Shown one piece after another: positions 23,203 through 38,943 of a stretch of 64,000 nt of DNA. Each line of letters opens with the position of its first letter. Position 1 is the first letter of the stretch. Under the pieces are notes generated by a model. That model saw only the letters and a program-made list of their open reading frames with translations. It was not told the DNA's origin and made no database searches. The translations under genes and the position numbers were made by a program. Origin of the DNA: Paecilomyces variotii (taxonomy: Eukaryota); NCBI GenBank assembly GCA_004022145.1, contig RCNU01000001.1. One strand, given 5' to 3'.

Positions 23203-23755
23203 GGCTTACCTAAGCCTAGATCACGTGGGAAGGTAGATATGGCAAGGTGCTGGAGCCAATCACGTGCGGTCACAGGGATATCAGAAAGATTATTGCCTGA
23301 GGCATGAACAAGCACTCATTGCTCGCTACAACAAAGAACCTCTGGCAGAAGTTGGAGAAAGAGAAAGTCAAGTTCTGGATTTTTCAGAATCAAAGCAGTT
23401 AAATAACATAGAACACGTGATACAGGCAGTGATAGCAATACATCCTAGGAGCTACAATTCAGGGTGTACCCTTGATCAGTAACACTTCCTCAATATATCA
23501 AGAAATGATTTATCCCAGCAGATTATTGAGGTATCCCTGAAAGTGATATTGCATAAGATCTAAAATAACATAATTAAAGCACTTTCCTGTAAAAGAATAA
23601 TACGGACACCGTCGATACTATACAAGCCCTCCATTTCCTCTTCCTCCTCTGGGGACATCATTTGCTCTCAAGATCGTAGATAGGTATCCTTTTCTTGCCG
23701 TCTAGAGCCCATCCATAATTTTTCTTCGAGAAGCAGATACAGCAGCCTTGATAAT

Positions 23756-25396
23756 ATGTCCATCATATCTTACTTTCCTAACAATGCAGAGCAGCCTACT
23801 CAGCTGGCTCGTCTGGTTCTAGCCAAATTCTCCTACACGACAACATCAACGCTTCACAACGCGCCCCTGAATTGGAATCACATCATTGGACAAGGGGATA
23901 TTGAGGCTGTATTCGAGAGGTACCATGCATCAGGGCTAGGAACTCCTCACGGTCTTGGGAAGACAGTTCTGAAAGTGTCACAGCATGCTAAGGTGCTAGT
24001 AAGTTGTGTCTTTGAGGCAGTACGACGACACAATACGACTGCAAGAAAGCTGATTATAGACAACAAAAGGAAGAGTTGAACTTGAATCTCTTGACGCAAG
24101 AAGCTGTTTCTCAATCTCGATCCATGCAGATTGGGAATGCGAAACCTACAGTAGCTGTGATTGTCAAGTCGCCGTGTCTGGCTGTCCGCTACCCCCGGTC
24201 TATGGGCCAGGTATGTCTCTGAAAGGCCCAAGTTTTTATTTGTTAACACATTTAAGTCATAATTTCGTCCAGATCCGTCGTTTCCAACTTAAATTCTCAT
24301 CCGACCATGACTACTATACGGCGTTGGCTATCTTGAGTGAGATCAACTGCCCATTCACTGAGTCGAGCGGCGGCCCTTCGGTGCAAACAACCCTGAGACC
24401 TGCGTCTTCATCTTCGCAAATACGCCCAGCTTCAGCATCTGTGGCTGGGACAGGCTTTTCGGCCCCAGTCAGAAGCAGTGGGCTGGCTCCTGTGTTCAAT
24501 ACTGCCTTCGACGCGAGAGCATTCACGGGAAGCAATCCATATGGAACTTCAATTAGTGCACCGCGTAACTACCCCCCTCATTCTTCCTGAACCATTGACA
24601 GGGCTAACTATTTTTCCTCATCAGGGTCATCCATATCCTCATCCTCCTCGTACACTGTCTCTACCGGATTCGAGCCGGCCACTGGGAATCGAGCCGGTCT
24701 TCAGCACGAAGAGAACCATGCATTACAATCCTTGCCTCAAAGGAGTCCATATTTCAACCAGGGTACATCTCATGGGGAAGGATCCGCATTTGGGACTCGC
24801 CCTTCAACAGCACCGGTGTCTGGCTACCATGACATTGAGTCTTTGAACCAGATCCTGCCACCAAAAAGAGAGCTTCCCTTTGCCAGACCCCTTGCGAAGA
24901 AGACTAAGACGGCACAGGATCCTCCGAAGACCGCGTCTTCTGGTCAACTCAGAGAATCAGAAGCTGAGCCATCTGCAGCGAGCAGGTCTCTTGAACCAAC
25001 CGGCAACATACTCCCAGACAAAACCCATCTTACACAGCTTCCTCCAAATACTTACAATGACTCAAGGCCTCGCGTTCCATTACAGAAAAACGCTGCTCAC
25101 TTAAACCCAGAAGTGAGTCTCGTAACTCAAATCTGAACCTTTAACAAAGCCACCGTTCTAACCCAACAAAGCAGCTTCAGACACCCAATCCGCAGCTTTC
25201 AACGAATCACTCTCCTCTATCCCAGTCTCTTGGTATTCTCTCATCAGCAGACCTATCCGCATACCTAGTCAAACCAGTACCTGAGCGTTCCGCCCTCGTT
25301 GAATCGTGGGTATGCCAGCAGCTTGAAGATGATGGATTTCTGAGCCTATGTCAGGATATAGAAGGTGTTTGGAAAAGGATTACTTTCGGACGATGA
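23756..25396 (+). CDS. Probable meiotic DSB protein Rec114/Rec7 orthologue
   Basis: Exons 23756-23998, 24070-24210 and 24273 onward splice in frame. PH-like N-terminus with CLAVRYP..IRRFQLKF, disordered middle, C-terminal VESWVCQQLEDDGFLSLCQDIEGVWKRITFGR*. Confidence 0.65.
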
Positions 25397-26317: not shown

Positions 26318-29097
26318 TTAATATTTAGCGAAGATATTAAGGTAGCCTTTCTTGGTGAGCATGCCCCATTCGATGTACATGTAGACAGGTGGCTGCGCCT
26401 GGGACTGCTGATTCTGACTGTTCTGGCCGGGAGTGGAAGTGTTGGTCTGACCGGGATGACCAGAGCCTGCAGCATTACCGTCAGCTGCAGAGATAGGAGG
26501 AGATGCGGCGTTCGTGGCAGCGCTGCCTTCCGCTCCAACTGCCAAGTCTGCAAGGTGCTGCAAAGAGCGCTGCTCGTTAGGTCCCATCACCGGCGGAGCT
26601 CCAGTCGAAGCGCTGGTGTTAGCGTTGGTGTTCGCATTGCTCGCGGCTGTACCCTGTCCTTGGCCTTGCGCCTGAGCCCTGGCCTGCTTCCTTTCGATGG
26701 CGGTGCGTATTTTAGCATCCCAGACCGGAGTGGCGAAGATGTTTGAGAACTCTCCTCCCTCATTGGTGCGCTGGTGACGAAGGTCAATGAGCTCTTTGGC
26801 CTTGTCCAGCCATTCCCAGCACTCTTTGGCATGCTCAGGGAGATCGGTCGCCTCAAGAAGACTCATCACACTGAGGGCTAGAGCGTGGAGGTCAAAGGGA
26901 GATGGCATGCGAGGACCAGTCGTCATCTGCTTCAGCAGATCCTCAATGATACGTTGGCAGGGATAGAGGACGTCGGATGCGTCTGATATAGCAATTTGAC
27001 GTTTGACCATGACACCGAGAAACCAATAAATAAGCCTCTCCACGGTGTCTAGATAACGCCCTATGGCAGAGTTTGGATCATTTGCTCCAGGGATTTTCCG
27101 GCTCAGAGCAGCCACCCTCTGAATTTCTGTACCCAGGCGACGACTCATTACACGAGGTGCCGCCACGCTCCAGTTGAGCAAGTCGACCCCAGAAACGATG
27201 ACCTCGGTGATGTGAGGCAGAAACTCGGATAAATCTATTCAGATATTCAGGTTAGCACGTTTTGATTACTAGTATAGTAGACTTTGAACTTACGGAAAGT
27301 GTGCTCGAGGCCGGACCCAAGAGTGTCTGGATCGTAACGGACTGGTTCATTCGTCGCAAACAGGTCGGAGGTTCCAACGCTGACATCATGCCAACGAGAA
27401 AGAACGGCAAGCGTGGCATAGGCACGACATGCGAGATCACCATCTGGGGTGGTCGGAGCGGGCGCAAGGCGATCGTATGGGATAGGCGGGTTCAATTCCC
27501 CCAGGCTCCTGACGAGAGCGCGCGCGTGCCTGATGGCAAATTGGATGATGACACTCTTCTGCAAAGGATCCCGATAACGAATGCTCTCGGGGCCACGTGC
27601 GTCGCATTCCAGGACAAGGCATATCAACGTCCACATCCAAACCATATTGGCAGGGATGCTGTCACGGAGAGGCGGCATCCCTTGCTGGTAATGCCAGAGT
27701 TTGTCGACAACATTGTCTAGAGTAAAGACCTTCTTGAAATTATTCTGGACACGGTCCAGGTTCGTGTCCGTGACCGCATAGAACACGTAGAGAAGAGCCT
27801 CCTGCACTTCACGCGGACACTGGTGTAGAATCTCGAGGAACCGTTCCCGGTTGTCGGGAAGGAACCCAAGCATGGGGTGGATGCATTGGTAGTACCTGAT
27901 ATTCTGTTAGAAACCCAAAAAAACGAGGACGTGTTTGAGACCATTCAGGACATACGCATTCAGCGACCCCTCATCCACCTCCGCCGGGCTGTTATCTTCT
28001 GGCATTTTAGCCTCGTCAGTGACCTCAAGAGTATCTTGTAGACCGTGCTCGTTAGCCCAGAATGGTTGGGTAGCCTTAGGGACAGAGCCAGTACCGTTGT
28101 GAAGCGGCTGGCTGTAGAAGTCAGAGTGTTCAGCTGCAGGTGTGGTGTGTGAGCAAGACAGCGTAGAAGCACGACCAGGGGAAACAATCACGTACCAAGA
28201 CCAGGATGAGGTGCGCGGGACATGAAAGAACCCTGCGGAAACGAAGAGGTAGGGAAATTCTCTGACATGGAAAAGGTCCGTTTACGACTAAGCAGATTTC
28301 CATCCATAGGCGGGGAGAACTCCTGGTAACCTCTCGGCGACGCGACATCGTTGATCGCTGGGTACTGCATCTCAGCCTGCCCTATCGCGGGCTGCATTTG
28401 GCTTTCAAGAGTATTCAACCGTTCGGCCAGTTCTTTGATATAGCTAAACCACCCTGTCAGCTGCTGCTCTTGATATGGTAATGTCCTGCCTGCTCTTACC
28501 CTTTGCTGGGTCCTCGTTTCATCGGCACCCGACTGAACTGACAGTTTACACCCAGACGACGGCAGTTGGAACATGTTTCGACCCCGGACTCGGATGTGGC
28601 ATCGCAGCGAACCTGAGGAAAGAAAGCAACATTAGCTATCGGGTTCTGGGACGCGTCCAAGCACATAGAGAGGGAAAAGATGACGCTCCTACCTTCTTGC
28701 GCCGACATTCGTCACAAGCGCGAGATACTTTCGAACGTTTCCTACGCGCGCTCTGGTCTCCATAGCTCAAATCATGGTTGGGATCGACGCCAACCTGCTG
28801 GTTCGGAGTGAACTGCAGCATGTGTTGCTGTTGTTGATCTGCAGACTGCGGACGACCCATATCAGGCGCGCCTGGGTTGGAAGGACCCAAGACCATAGGC
28901 TGGCCATGATGCAGACCGTTGCTACCGCCATCTTGAAGATTGGCGCCAGACGCTTCACGCGAGAGTTCCGCAGAGAGGAGCTCATCGGTTGTCAACTGAC
29001 GGTTGTAGTACTGCATGGTGCCCTGGCCCATCTGCGCCGCGTTGGGAGAGGGATACGAGGGCGCCGGAGGCATATCGGAGTGTTCTCGATGATTCAT
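26318..29097 (-). CDS. Zn(II)2Cys6 transcription factor, Rgt1-like
   Basis: Spliced RACDECRRKKVRCD..CSNCRRLGVNCQFSRVPMKRGPSKGYIKELAERL. The KRGPSKGY linker is typical of the Rgt1 family. Confidence 0.85.
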
Positions 29098-30553
29098 TGC
29101 ATCGAACTGGGCCGCGAAGAGGGCGTGGAGGTGGTGTTTGTTGCTGGAGCGAGACTCCGGAAGGTGAGAGAAGGTGGTGGTTGTAAGGGCGAGGCCGAGC
29201 TGCGACGCAAGATTTTACAGGCTAATTTTCTATGGGCGGGGGGGCGATGGATAGGCTAGTGCGGGCAGCACTCGGCGCAGGAAGGCAGGACTCGTCAAAC
29301 ATCGTGCTCGACGAATTTGCGATTTACATACTTCGAGGGAGCCGGCGACATGGCGATGGGGATGCGATATAGTTCCCTTTAGGATGATTGCGTCGCGGCG
29401 GAGATCCGGCCTTTTGTTTCTGCGTCCTGCGAGCGGAATAATACTATTTCCCACCGGCCCAGACTCTCCATTTTTTCCCGGAAGAACTCGAGCACGAACG
29501 GCCCGAGTCGCTGTCGGAAATTCTGCTGGCCGAGGCTAGATGATAATGATACATACAAAGGGCGTTGGTCATGGCTGGTTGTTGCGGTCTATCCCTGGTT
29601 GACGCTGCGATGCTGTTCTGAAGCTGTTTCGTATGGCATGAGGAATAGTGGTGGTCGCCACCGCACAACTCCGCTTTGGTCTGCCCTCAGAGAGCGTCAC
29701 TTTTATACAAAGACAGCAGAATCACCCGCAGGCAAACGCCTTCAACTAGAGCAGCCTCTGCGTCTGGCTCTCTTCATGATGTCAGAACCTTTGTGTGACG
29801 CAGTAGCCTTTGTCCTGCCTTATAGAGAGGCTGGCAGGGAAAAGCTACAGTATTCACTATGTTATATTATTGAATGTAGGTAGCTAATCTATATGTGGAA
29901 CTGTGACTTCTAAGACAGAATTCTCTATTGACAAATTCTTTGAGAATAGAGTTATTATACGGACAATCTGTGACCAAAAGCAATGATTACTATCGTCTAG
30001 GAGTAAACGGACATGGCTTGATTGTATGTTGCATGTGATGTCCAAACATCTCTGGTCGTTATTCCAGATAAAGCACCCCAGAAGTCCTGTATTTCATTCC
30101 AACCTTCTCCGTCTTCATAATGCCGTCTCATATCTTCTGGAGAGAAGTTAAAGGGGAGATCACCGCATCCCTGAGAAATGGATATCTAAACCTTTGCCAG
30201 TGTCGCGATATCTTGGCCATGATCTGATCTACCAAATGGGGTCGCAATGGACAAACTGCATTCACCCAGGCTACAAGGCTATCTTGTCAAAGTGAGCCAC
30301 GCATGAATATGCGAATGTGTGGGAACCCTTATATGTAAGTAAGCTATCTAGTTAATAATATATTTCTATATCCTCGTAAGATATCTTCATAGAGACCACT
30401 TCAGATGTTTCAATATATAATAATTCTATGTACTATATGCATACTTGTAAAGAAAAGCTCAACAAAAAGGAAAAAGAAAACAAAAAGTCTAGACCGGTTA
30501 CAATACTCCATCAATGCGACCTCCCAAACACCATCCCTCCCTTGGTATCTCGA

Positions 30554-32227
30554 TTAGTTTTCCCCTAGTATCTTGACACGAGTTGGCAACCCTTGCGACG
30601 GTTTAGCAGTAACGTCCAATGTCTGATACATGTAGGTGCCGTTTTCGTAGACCGTCTCAAAGTCAAAGGTGCGCAAAGTCATGACTAGAATGATTTTGAG
30701 CTGGATCAATGCCAACGTCTGCCCAAGACAAGTTCGCGGGCCCTTCTCGAAAGGCCGCCATGCGTCCTTGGGCACAAAGTACGGGTCCGTCGGATCAGTA
30801 ACAAGATGGCGCTCGGGGTAGAACTTCTCAGAGTCTTTGAACAGGTCTTCACGCCGCATTGTGGCGCAGTTATTCACGAGAACAGCGAAGGGGTATGTTG
30901 GCCATTCCCTGCCATCCGCTTTCAAGGTCTGACCTGGCTGTCCGCTCCGCAGACTAACACCTGTCGGTGGCCATAGTCTCAACGCTTCCTTGATGATTGC
31001 GAGAGTGTAATGGAGGTTGTTAACGAGTGCGGGATCCGTCCGGAGCATAACTGCAGCTCTAGAGGGGTCCTTGCCAAAGAGTGCTTCATGTTCTTCTCGA
31101 ACACGCTTAAGGATATGAGGGCTCTTGCCAAGTGCTGCGTATGTGTACTAAGAGACGAATTAGCTAACGTACGAGAGAAGTTGTATAGGTTCCAACTTAC
31201 GCAGAGAGTGCTAGCCGAGGTGTCGTGTCCGGCAAAGATCAAAGTCTTGACTGATGCAATCAGCATCTCGCGCGTGTCCTGATTGACAGATGCCTTTGCA
31301 TCGCCCGATATACTCTTATTGTTCAAACCGATTGCAATAGCGTCGTCAATGGCAAAATACTTGCTCTTCTCATCCACAGGCGCTGTAGCTGGTCCGTGGG
31401 CGATTCTCTTGTCCACGATACGGCCGACGTAGTTGTCAAGGGCACGTCCATTTTTCCATTTCCGGTAGTGCCGACTGGGACTGATATCGTACAAGTATCG
31501 CGACCAGAAGTCTTGAGGGGCGAGAGCTGCCTGCGCTCTGAAGAGTTCAAGGAACTCATCGTCATCTCTCTGGGCGTTGCATTCAATACCCCTACACCAC
31601 TGTTAGTGAATGGAACGAATCTATACTGGAGACGAAAAAAGCTCACAAAATAACCCTAGCGGATATATTGAAGATCATACGAGCGCACACGTCCTCCATT
31701 TTGAAAACATCTTCGTTTCTTGCGTGTTCTTTGAGGACTTCAGCGAACTGTAAAGCATTGTCCACAATACCAGGAACATGCTGCAACACTTTCCGCGGTT
31801 GGAAGCCCGGCGTGAACGACTTCCTTGCTACCAGCCATTCGTGTCCATTCGCAGTAACCATAGACTTCTTGCCAAGGATATGGCCAGTCCATTTCTGCAT
31901 GACAACCGACTCCTTTGGTAGATTCATCTTCTGGACAATTTGTGTCGCGAGTTCCGGTTGGACGATAACGAGCTGCGGTGGAGCGAGGGGCCATAGATCG
32001 AGGTAGAAGAAATCGCCCAAGCCATATCGCTTGCGCATCAAATGGGCGAAAAGTTGAGGAGTTGCATCAGGTGGTAGAGACCCTGCTATTTCTCGCATGA
32101 CCAAAAAGTGACCCCAGATAGCGTGATGCGGAGGACCAGGGAGATCTTTGAACATGCTTCGCTGCTGGCGCAGTCTCCAGAGGAAATAGACCACGAGGGC
32201 TACTACTGCGACGATTGGAATGAACAT
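30554..32227 (-). CDS. Cytochrome P450 monooxygenase
   Basis: N-terminal anchor MFIPIVAVVALVVYFLW, PGPP hinge, I-helix FAGHDTS, K-helix EALR, PERH and heme motif PFEKGPRTCLG. Two introns. Confidence 0.95.
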
Positions 32228-32778
32228 ATTGAGATTCGGTTGTCTTAGAGTTGGGTGTCCAAAGCCAAGAGTCGTCACCAGCGAAGATGCAGAGGTCAAG
32301 AGGTGAAGAGTGAATGATGTTTGAATAAAATTCAGCTTCAAGCATGGGCATTGCGGAATGAGGAGATGTGCTTGGAAGATATTATTTCATCTCGAGGGAC
32401 ATGCGTTCCATCGCTTTTATATCGATATTCCCGATGCCAATTTATTCCGCATAGACTCTCTCCTGTACTCTACTTAAACCGCTGAGCCTTAGGTCCAAAA
32501 CGCCCGATGCTATATTTGGCCGATTAGTCTACGTATATTTTTAGATGCATGGAAGCAATTTAGAACGCTACTTCAGGTACAACTATCCATGCGCATTTTC
32601 ATAGAAAATCTGCTTTACACTACCCTTGGGGCTAGCGTGATAATGTAAGTGCTGCTTCTCCACAATATACCTTAGGTAGGTAGTTTGGGGGCAGGAAAAT
32701 GGGCCACTTAGACCGACAGTGTACCTTAATATGGCAACATAATCGACGCCAACCTTATCTCAAATCCTTCCAGTTGCA

Positions 32779-32917
32779 ACGAAGGATGCGCTAAAGCAAT
32801 GCCGAACCACATGGCAATGAGCCTCAACTCGCGGCTGCGCTTGGCTGCTGACTGGGGCCGACCTGTTTCTTGATCCACCATGATCTAAGTTAGTTACTGG
32901 GGGCTATCATCCTTCGT
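32779..32917. promoter_or_regulatory. Inverted pair of ACGAAGGATG elements in the P450/7TM divergent promoter
   Basis: ACGAAGGATG at 32779-32788 (+) and its reverse complement CATCCTTCGT at 32908-32917. Confidence 0.5.
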
Positions 32918-33216
32918 GTTTACTTGGGATTTACAGCTAGATTCTCTATTTCTATCCTGAAACTTCAGGATAGTGGCCCGTGGGGCGGAATAGGCCTGAT
33001 GTCCCAGGTCGATACGGACGTCACAACCTGGGGCGGAATCTGGATCTCAGAATGTCGTTCACAATACTACCTACCCCATAGAAAAAGAATAAAAAAAGAC
33101 TAGTGGAAGCAATCTGCCAATTTTAAGCGTCCTTGCCTGATTATTCTCCTTCGTTCGAATGTCAATCTTTCTCAAGTCCATCTTTCTCAACCCTCTCCAG
33201 CATCATCATCATCATC

Positions 33217-34099
33217 ATGTTCGCTCTACGAGACGCAATCTATCTTATTGAATTGTCCTTCTATGGGCCTATCATCCCTGCTATCGTTTTCATCATTCTA
33301 ATTCACACGGCTCAAAAGCCGTACACATGGCGCCCCATAGTCATACCTCTTCTCCTGCTCTCCGGGTTGCGAATTGCTGGATCATCATTGGGACTCACAG
33401 CACTCGATCCTGACAAGTCCTCGCTGCTCACCACGTCGACGTTGCTCGATACAATCGGGCTGGCGCCAGTCTTATGCTTGCTTCTAGGACTTTTGATTCG
33501 AGCGTGAGTCTCCTGTGTACCTGTCGAACTTGGCTTTCTCCCCCGGGAATAGAACATTGACAAAATATACCAGAAATGCACCATTAGACAGGGGATTGCC
33601 CATCTGGGCGTTTCTACCACTCCATTTGATCACCATCGCGGCCACCGTGATGACAGCCTATGGAGGGAGAGACCTTTATACCACTCGGAAGACACAATCA
33701 AAGGACCTGAAACTGATGAAAGCAGGAATATTCCTGTTCATCGGTGCCTTCAGTATCTCCATAATCCTAGCGATTGTAACGCTATTCCGAGCCCGCTCGA
33801 TATTTAAGAGAACGGAACGGACAGCCGCCATCTGCGCGCTCCTATGTGTTCCGTTCATGAGCGTCAGGTTGGCTTATTCGGCCGGTTCTCTCTTCTCAGG
33901 CCAGGGTTCGGTTTTGAACCCGCTTTCCGACGACGACACAAGCATATGGCTTCATTTCCTCATGGTTATTGTCATGGAATATATCCCAACGCTTTCTGCG
34001 ACTGCAGTCGCTCTGACTGCTAGGAGAATGACAATAACACATATCAGAAACGATGAAGGTAAATATGATTTGGACGATGAAAGTGAGAACTGTATTTAG
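33217..34099 (+). CDS. Fungal ~7TM integral membrane protein (DUF7702-like)
   Basis: MFALRDAIYLIELSFY..LRIAGSSL..IGLAPVL, one intron, VPFMSVRLAYS, MEY. Alternating hydrophobic segments. Confidence 0.8.
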
Positions 34100-34908
34100 A
34101 TATGTGTTTATTTTCGTTATTTATGCCTTAGATTTTTCTGTCATTCGGGGTTTTGGTTGTCGTTTTTTTATTTTGTGCCGACGAAGAAGGTACAGGTTGT
34201 GGTAGCTGGATGAAACACGCATGATAGTTATCGAATTGTCTACTGAGTCAAATTTCTATGTGTATTAGCTTCGCTTCGAAATAAATCGTATCTATTTTCG
34301 ACGTTCTTACTCGAAGTGGATTTCAGTGCTGCCTCCTGGGTGGAGCCGTTGAGCGTAGTCTATGTACTTATCCTACTCAGCCCTGGTGCTACTGCTCTGA
34401 ACATGTGCAGAACGCATTGCGGTATACTTTAGGTAGTAAAAAGCGGCGGGAAAAAAAAATCCCATATTGGCATATACATCGTCGCATATATCTTCCTGGT
34501 AGATAGTCGACCTTTTTTCTTCATGGTCAACCACGCTGTCCACGATGTCTGAACAAGAAGTTCTAGCTTCGAACAATTTCGCGCCCAAAATGGCCCCCCC
34601 AGCCACTTATATAGAATGAAGGGGCGAAGGATTATTATTCGGGGGCGCTTTACTGAGGATCGTCATAGTTTACAGTTACCAGGGCAAAATATAGAAATGG
34701 AAACTTTGATAGCTTGATTGTAGCACTGGCCAAACGGCCGCTCTAGATATATGCTCTCTATAAACAACGAAAGAAATACGACAAAAAAAAGGCATAACAG
34801 CCACTGCATGGTAATGGTATACAAAAACAGACATCCTGCCAACGCTCGACACCCATGATTTTCCAATTCCAAGACAAAAGAAAAAAAAAAAACACCTGTA
34901 GCACGCAT

Positions 34909-35865
34909 TTAGCCAATGCTTAACAATAACAGAAAACAGAACGCCATGGCCAGAACAACTAGCCATAGCAGGATTCCAAGTACCATTGCTACCCGCTTGT
35001 AATACCTTAGATGGCCAGCCTCATTGCCATGCGGGAACGGATTCGGCCTTTGTCGTCCGAGGAACTCGCATAGCGGTGCCCAACCATCCTGGCACTTGAA
35101 GACTAGTAGTCTGTTTTTCGGCACGATCTTCTTCACCCAGGCACTGTGTGCATGATATAGTTCCACAGATGGCTCAGGAGGAAGATTATATCGCTCAGAT
35201 GCTAGTTGCATCCAGCCTCGGTAAAGGTCGTTGGCGGCGACGACGCCCGGTACCCAGTATCCGATCCAGCGGAAGCACTCAGACCGCAGGTCGATGCCAA
35301 AGCCATGCCATGAGTTGAGCCAGACTTTGGCTGAGGTGCGCTCGGTGAGGATCACTTTAGCGTCAGGGTACATTTCCAAGAGATCGGGCAAGCAAGCGCT
35401 TCCAGGAACTTCGAGTGTAGCTTCGCGACCATGGAAGAGCTTTGCTAGCTTGCGTCTTCTTAATGTTGTGTCCTTGGTGTGGACAATGTCGGCACTTAAT
35501 CTGAGATTCTCGAATTGACAGAGTGGCTCTGCAAGATGGAAACAATTGTTGTAGCCAAGCTCTTCTAGTGCTTTCTTCATGCTCATGGTACCAGTTCGTG
35601 GCAGTCCAGCCTGAAGAAGTACTCATTAGCTCAATTGTATCCTGGATATGTCCATATCAGAGGATCAACTTACCACAATGACCTTTATCGTTCCTCCATG
35701 ATGCACCCCTGCTGAGGACACACGTAGCCTGAGATCCGCCTTGGGATCGGGGCTGGTGATGCTGATACCCGCCTTGAGAATAAGCGGGAGCAGGTTCAGA
35801 CTGAGCTTGTGGTAGACCCATGAATTGGGCTTGTGGATATCTATCTGAACCCTTGGGCTCTGCAT
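34909..35865 (-). CDS. Sulfotransferase-like P-loop protein (Sulfotransfer_4 type) with C-terminal TM anchor
   Basis: Spliced IKVIVAGLPRTGTMSMKKALEELGY..CFH, YPDAKVILTER..W..S, VPKNRLLVF..DGWAPLCEFLG..P..PFPHGN, then a hydrophobic tail. Confidence 0.85.
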
Positions 35866-36552: not shown

Positions 36553-36635
36553 ACGAAGGATGATGTACATAACTAAATAAATCCTCGTCGAAGACACGTT
36601 CTCACCGAAGGATGCGCTAAACTAGAGACGAAGGA
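36553..36635 (+). promoter_or_regulatory. Three CGAAGGA(TG) elements upstream of the sulfotransferase-like gene
   Basis: ACGAAGGATG 36553-36562, CGAAGGATGCGCTAAA 36606-36621 and CGAAGGA at about 36629. Confidence 0.5.
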
Positions 36636-37840: not shown

Positions 37841-38943
37841 CTAGGAGTCAGCGTTAACAGTGCACTGCTGGAAGGTGCCACCTGCTCCTTCAATCATCAC
37901 TCCCTGGAACTTGCCATCGGAGCCGCCAACAACACGGTATTTACCGGGAGATTGGTCTGTTGCAGAGACTACGGTTAGCTTCTACTCGACACAATATTGT
38001 AAAAGTGAGCGGGAGCTGAACAAGAACTTACCTCCATAGAAGGTTCCTCCTGGGATGATTGGGAATTCGAGCAGCTCCTTGGTAACACCCGGGTACACCT
38101 GGGAACCGCCGCTCATGTTGCCAAAGACTTCAGGGTATTTACCGTATGTACCGACAGCGTTGTCCTTCAGCTGCTTGAAGGCACTTCCGACATCGTCCTT
38201 GGACAGAGTGGTACCATCGGGGCAGGTAGCAGAGCCGACCTTCTTCTTCTTAGCACGGGCGGCGAGCTCGTTCGTCTGGGAGCTAGGGGAGGGAGCAGAT
38301 GTGTCTCGGACGGCGAGTTCATCATCGCCGCTGTCGTCGTTGTCGTCGCCATTGTCACCGTTGCCTTTCTTGTCGCCCTTGTCGCCCTTGTCCTTCTTGT
38401 CTTCCTTATCTTTGTCGTCGTCGTCGTCGTTGCGCTTGTCCTTGACAGGGGTGCAGGCTTCGTAGGCACCGGAAATGGTAGCACCAGTATGTTGCATTAC
38501 ACCCCTGAAGTCTCCGCGATTATTCTTGTAGTCAGTGACTACGCGGTATGCACCGGGGGGTCCTAAGAAGGGCTTTATGTTAGCATATCGCAAAACATGA
38601 TGTGAGCGTATTGGGACAATGTACCTCCTGTATACGCAGCACCAGAGATAATTGGGAACTCTCTAAGATCAGTGCCGTCAGGGATGTTCGAGAAGACTTT
38701 CCCCCCGCCACTCTTGTTTCCGAAGGGCTTAGGATAGCTGCGCGCGACGGTTCTATCGTCGTGGGCTCTGCACTCTTGGAGTGCAGTCTTGATATCATCT
38801 TTGGCAATCGTTGAGCCATCAGGACAAAGGTAGTCACTGAGCTTGGCTGCTCTCTTGGTGAGAGCGTTCTCCGCTGTAGAAGACGCGGGGATAGGAGAGG
38901 CATAGGCCACGGCGACGAGCCCGTAGAGGAAAACTGACTTCAT
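37841..38943 (-). CDS. Secreted polyprotein with two RNase T1/U2-fold domains
   Basis: Signal MKSVFLYGLVAVAYA, pro-site ALTKR. Domain 1: YPKPFGN..REFPII..GGPPGAYRVV..GVMQHTGA..ACT. Acidic linker. Domain 2: YPEVFGN..LEFPII..SPGKYRVV..GVMIEGA..QCT. Introns 38563-38624 and 37957-38031. Confidence 0.88.

What the first reader, a model, noticed from the sequence alone, without database searches (positions are those of the whole stretch)
30554..35865. Backbone-less three-gene module: P450 + 7TM protein + membrane-anchored sulfotransferase-like enzyme
Seen: three adjacent intact genes, all predicted membrane-bound (N-anchor, polytopic, C-anchor). The P450 and 7TM genes are divergent, and no PKS, NRPS or terpene synthase is present in the window. 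Established: P450 oxidation followed by PAPS-dependent sulfation is a standard modification sequence, and GLPRTGT resembles the 5'-phosphosulfate-binding loop. Inference: an ER-based oxidise/sulfate/export-or-sense module acting on a lipid, sterol or xenobiotic, which backbone-centred cluster finders would miss. A shared promoter motif (separate finding) supports co-regulation.
Basis: partly seen in the sequence, partly recalled or inferred. Interest (0 to 1): 0.72.

Follow-up and report, generated by a model that had tools for sequence, protein, structure and literature searches.

The report
Conserved fungal P450–7TM–sulfotransferase gene trio
Three neighbouring membrane-protein genes of the mould Paecilomyces variotii (an oxidase, a seven-helix membrane protein and a sulfate-adding enzyme) stay side by side in many distantly related fungi, so they probably work together on an unknown fatty or drug-like molecule.

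Summary
Window 30554-35865 holds three intact, intron-bearing genes of Paecilomyces variotii:
- a 521-aa N-anchored cytochrome P450, orthologue of A. nidulans AN9210 = CYP662A1;
- a 270-aa seven-helix DUF7702 protein, weakly RTA1-like;
- a 297-aa tail-anchored PF17784 ("S. mansoni-type") sulfotransferase with its PAPS-binding loop intact.

No PKS, NRPS or terpene synthase lies in the window.

Judged by consecutive locus tags or accessions, the same three orthologues are adjacent in seven species, including A. nidulans (AN9208-AN9210) and P. expansum. Pairs or near-neighbours occur in about 14 more, including Xylariales, a different class. All three gene trees share one odd split, which has 100/100 support in the concatenated tree, so the trio is inherited as a unit. 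Aspergillus monophyly is rejected, which suggests horizontal spread or differential loss.

A 16-nt exact motif is shared by the P450/7TM divergent promoter and the sulfotransferase upstream region.

Chemistry, substrate and co-expression remain untested. The hydroxylate, sulfate, then export reading is coherent but inferred. Nearest precedent: the backbone-less mcfP/mcfS O-sulfonation cluster of FR901379.

The parts
30554..32227 (-). Cytochrome P450 gene (CYP662 family, CYP59 clan). Three exons: 32227-31647, 31591-31201, 31147-30554. 521 aa with an N-terminal membrane anchor.
   Evidence: The sequence shows GT..AG introns. Pfam p450 hits all three exons and the whole protein. The spliced translation equals P0227. 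The motifs AGHDTSAS, EALR, PERH and FEKGPRTCLG are seen. AN9210 = CYP662A1 lies in the same 90%-identity cluster as P0181, and P0181 is 76.7% identical to the near-identical P. variotii protein P0173.
32228..33216 (.). 989-bp divergent intergenic region shared by the P450 and 7TM genes.
   Evidence: The region holds motif copy 1 and two exact GGGGCGGAAT sites.
32777..32806 (+). Shared promoter motif, copy 1. The exact 16-mer core CGAAGGATGCGCTAAA lies at 32780-32795. It is about 550 bp upstream of the P450 ATG and about 420 bp upstream of the 7TM ATG.
32982..33039 (+). Two exact GGGGCGGAAT sites, at 32982-32991 and 33030-33039, upstream of the 7TM gene.
   Evidence: With one mismatch allowed there are 8 matches in the window against 3.99 expected, so enrichment is only weak. 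No exact copy lies upstream of the sulfotransferase gene.
33217..34099 (+). DUF7702 seven-transmembrane protein gene. Two exons: 33217-33503 and 33574-34099. 270 aa.
   Evidence: Sequence. Pfam DUF7702. Seven hydrophobic segments. Helices in the (low-confidence) model. The spliced translation equals P0211.
34909..35865 (-). PF17784 (Sulfotransfer_4) sulfotransferase gene. Two exons: 35865-35674 and 35610-34909. 297 aa. It has a clade-specific 60-aa N-terminal extension, the catalytic domain, and a C-terminal transmembrane tail at 274-292.
   Evidence: Sequence. Pfam. PDB sequence and fold matches to PAPS-dependent sulfotransferases. Invariant residues. The spliced translation equals P0197.
36603..36632 (+). 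Shared promoter motif, copy 2. The exact 16-mer core lies at 36606-36621, about 740 bp upstream of the sulfotransferase ATG.

Best explanation
The three genes form one self-contained, co-inherited membrane cassette that modifies a lipophilic small molecule without needing a backbone synthase.

Proposed order of events (inferred):
1. The N-anchored CYP662 P450, whose catalytic domain faces the cytosol on the ER, adds a hydroxyl group.
2. The tail-anchored PF17784 enzyme, also cytosol-facing where PAPS is made, transfers sulfate from PAPS to that hydroxyl.
3. The RTA1-like DUF7702 seven-helix protein moves the substrate or the charged product across a membrane.

What is shown:
- gene structures, family memberships and intact cofactor motifs;
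- membrane anchors;
- conserved adjacency;
- congruent phylogeny;
- a shared upstream motif.

What is inferred:
- the order of reactions, ER location and the direction of transport;
- that the substrate is either a widespread xenobiotic or toxic lipid (a phase I/II/III-like detoxification) or a universal primary lipid turned into a sulfated product.
For: Family membership:
- All three families were assigned by Pfam above their cutoffs.
- The sulfotransferase matches the schistosome SULT-OR, Cpz8 (solved with PAP) and SgdX2 structures by sequence (E 1e-22 to 3e-16). The match also holds by fold for a model of pLDDT 85.9 (TM 0.67-0.87 normalised to the target).
- The loop A65 G66 R69 T72 S74, plus R155, W161 and S164, are invariant in 32 of 32 aligned family members.
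- The P450 has its heme-Cys, ExxR and I-helix motifs.

Adjacency, by consecutive numbering:
- Full trios: P. variotii (many strains), P. lecythidis, A. wentii (2 strains), Arachnomyces sp., A. nidulans AN9208-10, A. nidulans var. acristatus and P. expansum (4 strains).
- Pairs or two-apart: A. terreus, A. floccosus, A. tetrazonus, A. tanneri, A. terricola, A. similis, A. recurvatus, P. fimorum, P. ucsense, Penicillium sp. DV-2018c, Pseudomassariella vexata and Pestalotiopsis fici.
- Same contig: A. ambiguus.
- Four apart: Xylariales sp. PMI_506.

Orthologue groups:
- Each is sharply bounded. Identity drops from 74% to 52% for the sulfotransferase and from 64% to 46% for the P450.
- All three groups cover the same genera.

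Phylogeny:
- All three gene trees show the split {P. variotii, A. wentii, Arachnomyces, Xylariales} against {other Aspergillus plus Penicillium}. SH-aLRT support is 88, 83 and 99.7.
- The concatenated tree supports the same split at 100/100.

Other:
- An exact 16-mer occurs only in the two promoter regions of the trio within the 64-kb window.
- Precedent: the FR901379 O-sulfonation cluster mcfP (P450) plus mcfS lies apart from its core cluster (PMC9987125, passages).
- A. oryzae PF17784 proteins LdrG/H sit on lipid droplets and ER (bioRxiv 10.1101/2022.11.24.517872, passages).
Against: - No chemistry, substrate, localisation or co-expression was tested.
- The position of the catalytic Asp (D91 in SmSULT, D100 in ShSULT; PMC7167500 figure legend) is Glu131 here.
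- The DUF7702 match to RTA1 is below Pfam's cutoff (20.2 against 24). Its AF2 model was too poor (pLDDT 56) to classify as transporter or receptor.
- Adjacency was read from numbering, not from coordinates.
- In one P. variotii strain (DTO166G4) the sulfotransferase sits on a different contig from the other two genes. In another strain (DTO271D3) the tags are 11 apart.
- Within Eurotiales, part of the conserved adjacency could be ordinary synteny.
- The motif test is post hoc.
- The CYP59 clan, to which CYP662 belongs, is known for aromatic polyketide oxidation (StcS/AflN) rather than lipid oxidation. That function is recalled; clan membership comes from PMC8955511 and PMC4122930.
Confidence: 0.45

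Rival explanations
1. Trans-acting tailoring module. The trio decorates a secondary metabolite whose core synthase lies elsewhere in the genome, as mcfP/mcfS do for FR901379. The 7TM protein would serve export or self-protection.
For: - Documented precedent of a separate P450 plus sulfotransferase cluster (PMC9987125 passages).
- In A. nidulans the trio abuts the AN11191 PKS cluster, and SMURF drew the cluster edge at AN9210 (PMC3689640).
- CYP662 belongs to the CYP59 clan together with StcS/AflN-type enzymes.
Against: - Manual curation excluded AN9210 from the AN11191 cluster.
- No backbone gene lies in the 64-kb window.
- The trio occurs in fungi as different as Paecilomyces, Penicillium, several Aspergillus sections, Arachnomyces and Xylariales. 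All of these would need to share one core product.
Confidence: 0.2
2. Activating sulfation. The enzyme sulfates a P450-made hydroxyl only to create a leaving group (elimination, cyclisation or alkylation), so the end product carries no sulfate.
For: - Among the solved relatives, SgdX2 is titled 'bacterial activating sulfotransferase' (title of Mori et al. 2024 seen in a reference list).
- The schistosome enzyme activates oxamniquine as a prodrug (abstract of PMC7167500).
Against: - Cpz8, equally close, makes stable aryl sulfates (PMC11677658 passage).
- Nothing in the locus encodes a partner for an elimination step.
- A dedicated membrane protein fits export of a charged product better.
Confidence: 0.12
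3. Organelle or lipid-homeostasis role. The PF17784 protein acts like A. oryzae LdrG/LdrH at ER or lipid droplets, with or without catalysis. The P450 and 7TM protein adjust a membrane lipid, so the trio is not a detoxification or export device.
For: - LdrG/H are PF17784 proteins on lipid droplets and ER that affect droplet number and size.
- The sulfotransferase has hydrophobic segments at both ends.
- RTA1-type proteins are linked to lipid handling (recalled).
Against: - A. oryzae is absent from the orthologue group, so LdrG/H are paralogues at best.
- A patchy, dispensable distribution argues against a core homeostatic role.
- The invariant PAPS-site residues argue for catalysis.
Confidence: 0.1
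4. Three unrelated genes whose adjacency persists by descent or by hitch-hiking in one transferred DNA segment, with no common pathway.
For: - No functional or expression link was shown here.
- Many of the syntenic species are Eurotiales, where microsynteny is common.
Against: - Adjacency holds in Xylariales, another class.
- The three orthologue groups cover the same genera.
- The three trees are congruent.
- Flanking sequence differs even among Paecilomyces annotations while the trio is kept.
- A promoter motif is shared.
Confidence: 0.1

Closest known systems
FR901379 O-sulfonation gene cluster (mcfP P450 + mcfS sulfotransferase) of Coleophoma empetri
   Same: It is a small fungal cluster without a backbone enzyme that pairs a P450 with a sulfotransferase. 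It lies apart from the core cluster and carries out hydroxylation followed by O-sulfonation (PMC9987125 passages).
   Different: Its substrate (an echinocandin homotyrosine) and core cluster are known. No 7TM gene is mentioned in the passages read. I could not obtain the McfS sequence, so it is unknown whether it belongs to PF17784 or is membrane-anchored. The trio here is far more widely distributed.
Schistosome SULT-OR, Streptomyces Cpz8 and Micromonospora SgdX2 (solved PF17784 sulfotransferases)
   Same: Same Pfam family and fold. They share the GxxRTGT loop and the conserved Arg and Ser.
   Different: Only 27-31% identical. Glu replaces the catalytic Asp. The fungal protein adds a 60-aa N-terminal extension and a C-terminal transmembrane tail, and it sits in a P450/7TM cluster.
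Aspergillus oryzae LdrG/LdrH (PF17784 lipid-droplet regulators)
   Same: They are fungal PF17784 proteins attached to ER and lipid-droplet membranes.
   Different: They attach through amphipathic helices, not a tail anchor. No enzymatic activity is reported and no cluster partners are described. They are not in the orthologue group found here.
RTA1/RSB1 lipid-translocating exporter family (PF04479)
   Same: Fungal seven-helix membrane proteins. DUF7702 gives a weak RTA1 match, and language-model neighbours include RTA1 clusters. Roles in resistance to toxic sterol and sphingoid amines are recalled, not tested.
   Different: The match is below Pfam's cutoff for RTA1. No member of DUF7702 has a known function.
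Animal phase I / II / III xenobiotic metabolism
   Same: The same logic: P450 oxidation, then PAPS-dependent sulfation, then export of the conjugate.
   Different: In animals the genes are dispersed and the sulfotransferases are soluble PF00685 enzymes. Here three membrane proteins are encoded in one 5.3-kb block.

Membership tests
PF17784 Sulfotransfer_4 (S. mansoni-type PAPS-dependent sulfotransferase) | Match to the family HMM above the gathering score | tested here: met
   191.9 bits against a cutoff of 22.8, covering profile positions 1-213 of 215. Exon 2 alone scores 184 bits.
PF17784 Sulfotransfer_4 (S. mansoni-type PAPS-dependent sulfotransferase) | 5'-phosphosulfate-binding P-loop | tested here: met
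   AGLPRTGTMS lies at residues 65-74. A65, G66, R69, T72 and S74 are invariant in 32 of 32 aligned members.
PF17784 Sulfotransfer_4 (S. mansoni-type PAPS-dependent sulfotransferase) | Conserved Arg and Ser of the 3'-phosphate-binding region | tested here: met
   R155, W161 and S164 are invariant. Their assignment to the 3'-PB site rests on analogy with other sulfotransferases, which is recalled.
PF17784 Sulfotransfer_4 (S. mansoni-type PAPS-dependent sulfotransferase) | Catalytic Asp (D91 in SmSULT, D100 in ShSULT) | tested here: inconclusive
   The aligned position is Glu131 (D91/D100 from the figure legend of PMC7167500). Glu is shared by the whole orthologue clade and by its 45-52% relatives. 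More distant members have Asp.
PF17784 Sulfotransfer_4 (S. mansoni-type PAPS-dependent sulfotransferase) | Fold of the solved family members | tested here: met
   AF2 model with pLDDT 85.9 and pTM 0.78. The top 19 Foldseek hits are all SULT-OR, Cpz8 or SgdX2, with E from 4e-12 to 2e-10.
PF17784 Sulfotransfer_4 (S. mansoni-type PAPS-dependent sulfotransferase) | PAPS-dependent sulfate transfer | not testable with these tools
   Needs an enzyme assay.
Cytochrome P450, family CYP662 (CYP59 clan) | P450 HMM match plus the heme-thiolate, ExxR and I-helix motifs | tested here: met
   173 bits. FEKGPRTCLG, EALR and AGHDTSAS are in the sequence.
Cytochrome P450, family CYP662 (CYP59 clan) | More than 40% identity to a named CYP662 member | tested here: met
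   AN9210 is listed as CYP662A1 (supplement of PMC3689640). AN9210.2 is in the same 90%-identity cluster as P0181. P0181 is 76.7% identical to the P. variotii protein P0173, which differs from the window's protein at 3 residues.
DUF7702 (PF24800) | HMM match above the cutoff and seven transmembrane helices | tested here: met
   109 bits against a cutoff of 27. Seven hydrophobic segments.
RTA1-like lipid-translocating exporters (PF04479) | HMM match above the gathering score | tested here: not met
   20.2 bits against a cutoff of 24. It is related at best at clan level, so it is not filed as RTA1.
Canonical fungal biosynthetic gene cluster | A backbone enzyme (PKS, NRPS, terpene synthase) within the cluster | tested here: not met
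   0 of 104 ORFs of 110 aa or more in the 64-kb window.
Backbone-less P450 + sulfotransferase O-sulfonation cluster (mcfP/mcfS type) | Adjacent P450 and sulfotransferase genes away from any core synthase | tested here: met
   Conserved in other genomes.
Backbone-less P450 + sulfotransferase O-sulfonation cluster (mcfP/mcfS type) | Homology of the sulfotransferase and P450 to McfS and McfP | not tested

The most novel reading that the evidence does not exclude
The trio is a horizontally spreading, self-sufficient 'hydroxylate, sulfate, export' cassette. It would give the first biochemical role to fungal PF17784 sulfotransferases and to the DUF7702 family. It would either neutralise a widespread toxic lipophile or make a sulfated lipid signal from a universal precursor. 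Its near-identity across genera (P450 88-90% between Penicillium and Aspergillus, 82-84% between Eurotiomycetes and Xylariales) would reflect recent transfer of the whole block.
Probability: 0.3. Interest if true: 0.75.

Novelty: new variant of a known kind. Interest (0 to 1): 0.55.

Why it matters
Fungal sulfation is poorly understood. A 2024 survey looked only at soluble PF00685 enzymes and called the mechanisms "largely unknown" (PMC11677658 abstract and passages).

This locus offers three things:
- a defined, conserved, three-gene handle on a membrane-bound sulfation route;
- a first genomic context for the uncharacterised DUF7702 family;
- a case of a backbone-less cluster that standard cluster finders skip.

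It is directly testable in A. nidulans (AN9208-AN9210). The cross-genus sequence identity and the tree discordance also make it a candidate example of en-bloc gene-cluster transfer.

Tried and rejected
- **Whole-genome search.** No genome is held for this window, so paralogue and co-location statistics within the genome were impossible.
- **Metagenome scan with the sulfotransferase.** Of 20 loci, the only hit above 53% identity was one 1.1-kb P. variotii fragment (L001). The other 19 were short or distant relatives at or below 53% identity, so it gave no orthologous context.
- **RNA evidence.**
  - Runs X1 and X2 (metatranscriptomes) cover the locus with long unspliced contigs that include the intergenic DNA. 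This says nothing about transcription.
  - Run X5 has short low-depth pieces on exons of all three genes. It also has an 8-letter loose end at 31591 that matches 7 of 8 letters expected across P450 intron 1. This is only a weak hint of transcription and of the splice site.
  - Run X16 laid nothing, and X16-X24 held about none of the words. That is no proof of silence, and no co-expression statement can be made.
- **AF2 model of the 7TM protein.** Built from 19 close orthologues, it reached only pLDDT 56, so no fold search was run and export versus sensing stays open.
- **Literature searches with no hits.** Searches for AN9208, AN9209, AN9207, DUF7702, NFIA_044210, PFICI_10961/2, PEX2_0748x0 and ATEG_0794x found no paper on these genes. 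AN9210 appears only in one cluster table and its supplement. The SgdX2/9KF1/8Y9P search returned only false word matches. The five-term fungal sulfotransferase search gave nothing relevant.
- **GGGGCGGAAT as a shared site.** There are two exact copies upstream of the 7TM gene and none exact upstream of the sulfotransferase, and window-wide enrichment is weak. It was not used as evidence of co-regulation.
- **A 14-nt inverted pair flanking the trio (30330 / 37558).** Judged too short to mean anything.
- **Earlier findings of this scan.** Nothing was shown. One look-up was mis-worded and not repeated.
- **Complex prediction.** Not attempted, because no binding claim is made.

Full report
**What is there**

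The window is fungal, from Paecilomyces variotii, as named by the database hits. I read the sequence on both strands and built three gene models with canonical GT..AG introns:

| Gene | Strand | Exons | Length |
|---|---|---|---|
| P450 | minus | 32227-31647, 31591-31201, 31147-30554 | 521 aa |
| Seven-helix protein | plus | 33217-33503, 33574-34099 | 270 aa |
| Sulfotransferase-like | minus | 35865-35674, 35610-34909 | 297 aa |

Spliced in a script, each model translates without internal stops. Each is letter-for-letter identical to a deposited P. variotii protein: P0227, P0211 and P0197. The finding's coordinates, 30554-35865, run exactly from the P450 stop to the sulfotransferase start.

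**Families**

- Pfam assigns p450, DUF7702 (with a sub-threshold RTA1 match) and Sulfotransfer_4 PF17784.
- Hydropathy gives an N-terminal anchor in the P450, seven segments in DUF7702 and one C-terminal segment (274-292) in the sulfotransferase.
- The P450 carries AGHDTSAS, EALR, PERH and FEKGPRTCLG.
- PF17784 is InterPro's "S. mansoni-type" sulfotransferase family (PMC11625862, passage).

Evidence that the third protein is a real sulfotransferase:
- It matches the solved schistosome oxamniquine-activating enzymes, Streptomyces Cpz8 (solved with PAP) and the "activating sulfotransferase" SgdX2 by sequence.
- A confident AF2 model (pLDDT 85.9) matches the same structures by fold. The 19 best Foldseek hits are all these proteins.
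- In an alignment of 32 family members, the loop A65 G66 R69 T72 S74 and R155, W161 and S164 are invariant.
- The catalytic Asp of the schistosome enzymes (D91/D100, figure legend of PMC7167500) aligns with Glu131 here. I checked this through the Y54F construct offset. Glu is shared by the orthologue clade and its 45-52% relatives, while distant members keep Asp.

The C-terminal hydrophobic tail is common in the family, even in bacterial members. A roughly 60-aa N-terminal extension with a hydrophobic helix (residues about 13-40) is specific to the orthologue clade.

**Surroundings**

0 of 104 stop-to-stop ORFs of 110 aa or more hit a PKS, NRPS or terpene synthase. The neighbours are ordinary genes:
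- Miro GTPase, WD40, MsrB, a CUE/DUF1771 protein, a C2H2 protein and Rec114;
- a Zn2Cys6-type regulator directly to the left;
- an RNase-T1-like ORF to the right;
- DUF3632, RibD_C, an aminotransferase, RPN7 and an MFS sugar transporter.

The "backbone-less" description therefore holds for this window.

**Are the genes co-located elsewhere?**

No eukaryotic genome context tool was available, so I used the numbering of deposited proteins.

The homologue searches show a sharply bounded orthologue group for each gene:
- Sulfotransferase: 32 clusters at 74% identity or more, then 52% (1354 hits, 120 listed).
- 7TM protein: 52 hits, all at 45% or more.
- P450: 15 hits at 64% or more, then 46% (24 hits).

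All three groups come from the same genera.

Consecutive locus tags or accessions for all three genes, in the window's order (sulfotransferase, 7TM, P450), are seen in:
- many P. variotii strains;
- P. lecythidis;
- A. wentii (two strains);
- Arachnomyces sp. PD_36 (FQN54_000605/606/607);
- A. nidulans FGSC A4 (AN9208/AN9209/AN9210);
- A. nidulans var. acristatus;
- P. expansum (four strains).

Weaker forms of the same evidence:
- Sulfotransferase and P450 two numbers apart: A. floccosus, P. fimorum, A. tetrazonus.
- Adjacent pairs: A. terreus (both pairs, in different strains), A. tanneri, A. terricola, A. similis, A. recurvatus, P. ucsense, Penicillium sp. DV-2018c. In Xylariales: Pseudomassariella vexata (7TM and P450) and Pestalotiopsis fici (sulfotransferase and 7TM).
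- A. ambiguus has all three on one 179-kb contig.
- In Xylariales sp. PMI_506 the sulfotransferase and P450 are four numbers apart.

Exceptions:
- In P. variotii DTO166G4 the sulfotransferase is on another contig than the other two genes. Metatranscriptome contigs also break at the poly-T tract near 34.78-34.90 kb, so an assembly break is plausible but unproven.
- In DTO271D3 the tags are 11 apart.

Adjacency is inferred from numbering, not from coordinates.

**Co-inheritance**

- Separate trees of the sulfotransferase (26 rows), P450 (19 rows) and 7TM protein (19 rows) all recover the same split. It is {P. variotii, A. wentii, Arachnomyces, Xylariales} against {other Aspergillus plus Penicillium}, with SH-aLRT 88, 83 and 99.7. 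These trees used full-length named proteins only; unnamed fragments were left out.
- A concatenated tree of 17 species (1078 columns, some genes missing for 7 species) gives this split 100/100 support.
- Holding all Aspergillus rows together costs 147 log-likelihood units (p-AU 2e-76). The group was named after seeing the trees.
- Xylariales monophyly is not rejected (p = 0.43).
- Identities are unusually high for such genes. The P450 is 88-90% identical between P. expansum, A. nidulans var. acristatus, A. terreus and A. fischeri. It is 82-84% identical between P. variotii or Arachnomyces and Pseudomassariella, which belongs to another class.
- My recollection that average Aspergillus orthologues are near 70% identical is not from a call.

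Together this says the trio travels as a unit. It has either been transferred horizontally or sorted from old paralogous copies.

The flank beyond the P450 also differs among Paecilomyces annotations. The strain No. 5 model runs into a Helicase_C fragment, and the P. lecythidis model extends by about 350 aa. Neither extension has a match anywhere in the window.

**P450 family**

- AN9210 is listed as CYP662A1 (supplement of PMC3689640).
- AN9210.2 falls in the same 90%-identity cluster as the P. expansum orthologue.
- CYP662 sits in the CYP59 clan (PMC4122930 and PMC8955511 passages).
- Among eight aspergilli it was found only in A. nidulans and A. terreus. Both species also carry the other two genes.
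- SMURF put AN9210 at the edge of the AN11191 PKS cluster, but manual curation excluded it.

**Regulation**

- The longest direct repeat in 29.9-38.0 kb is a 30-nt element with an exact 16-nt core, CGAAGGATGCGCTAAA.
- One copy lies in the P450/7TM divergent promoter (32780-32795). The other lies about 740 bp upstream of the sulfotransferase (36606-36621).
- There is no other copy in the window, even with 3 mismatches allowed.
- By my rough estimate, a chance exact 16-mer shared between these two regions has odds of about 1 in 1000 (inference, and post hoc).
- Expression data were uninformative (see Tried and rejected).

**How it most likely works**

Shown: three membrane-bound proteins with intact cofactor motifs, inherited together. 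The rest is inferred.

1. A tail-anchored sulfotransferase and an N-anchored P450 would both expose their catalytic domains to the cytosol, where PAPS is made.
2. P450 hydroxylation followed by sulfation of a lipophilic substrate at the membrane surface is therefore the simplest joint chemistry.
3. The resulting amphiphilic anion would need a membrane protein to leave. The RTA1-like 7TM protein is the obvious candidate.

A block that is maintained in unrelated genomic settings and in different classes should be useful on its own. This favours a widespread xenobiotic or toxic lipid, or a universal primary lipid, as substrate.

Rivals:
- trans-tailoring of a metabolite made elsewhere (the mcfP/mcfS precedent; PMC9987125);
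- activating sulfation with no sulfated end product (SgdX2 and SULT-OR analogy);
- a lipid-droplet or ER homeostasis role like LdrG/H;
- no common pathway.

**Novelty**

I found no paper on these genes. A 2024 study of fungal sulfotransferases considered only PF00685. The kind of system, a small backbone-less P450 plus sulfotransferase cluster, is known. New here are this membrane-bound version with a DUF7702 partner, its wide and patchy distribution, and its discordant phylogeny.

Noticed in passing
orthologues in other genomes (P0181, P0273, P0176, P0288; P0177, P0174): P450 orthologues of Penicillium expansum, A. nidulans var. acristatus, A. terreus and A. fischeri are 88-90% identical. Those of P. 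variotii and Arachnomyces are 82-84% identical to a Xylariales one. Members from several genera fall into single 90%-identity clusters. This is unusually high for a P450 and suggests recent spread.
   Followed up: partly
window 29215-30553 versus P0232 and P0231: Gene models of the same P450 in P. variotii No. 5 and P. lecythidis continue into extra sequence: a Helicase_C fragment in one and about 350 aa in the other. Neither extra part has a tblastn match anywhere in this 64-kb window, so the flank beyond the P450 differs between close relatives.
   Followed up: partly
window 26321-29214 (-): A long Zn2Cys6-type regulator gene lies directly beside the P450. Its CDECRRKK...C..C zinc-cluster motif is split by an intron between ORFs 28636-29097 and 28496-28708. 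Whether it regulates the trio or is an unrelated housekeeping factor was not examined.
   Followed up: no
window 34780-34900: A poly-T/A tract lies just downstream of the sulfotransferase stop codon. Contigs of two public runs break here and length variants occur (2-5 letters left out, 5 A put in). This is a likely cause of assembly breaks between the sulfotransferase and 7TM genes in draft genomes.
   Followed up: no
window 37985-38662 (-): An ORF with a weak guanyl-specific ribonuclease (PF00545) match also carries a long Asp/Lys/Gly-rich low-complexity stretch.
   Followed up: no
window 23684-24587 (+): A Rec114/Rec7-type meiotic recombination gene is split over two ORFs. This fits a sexual cycle in this mould.
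   Followed up: no
alignment A1: A C-terminal hydrophobic tail is present in most aligned PF17784 members, including bacterial ones (Chloroflexi, Hyphomonadaceae, Rubrobacteraceae). Membrane anchoring may therefore be ancestral in this branch of the family, unlike the crystallised schistosome sulfotransferase chains (253-263 residues), whose matches to the query end at about residue 260, before the tail.
   Followed up: no
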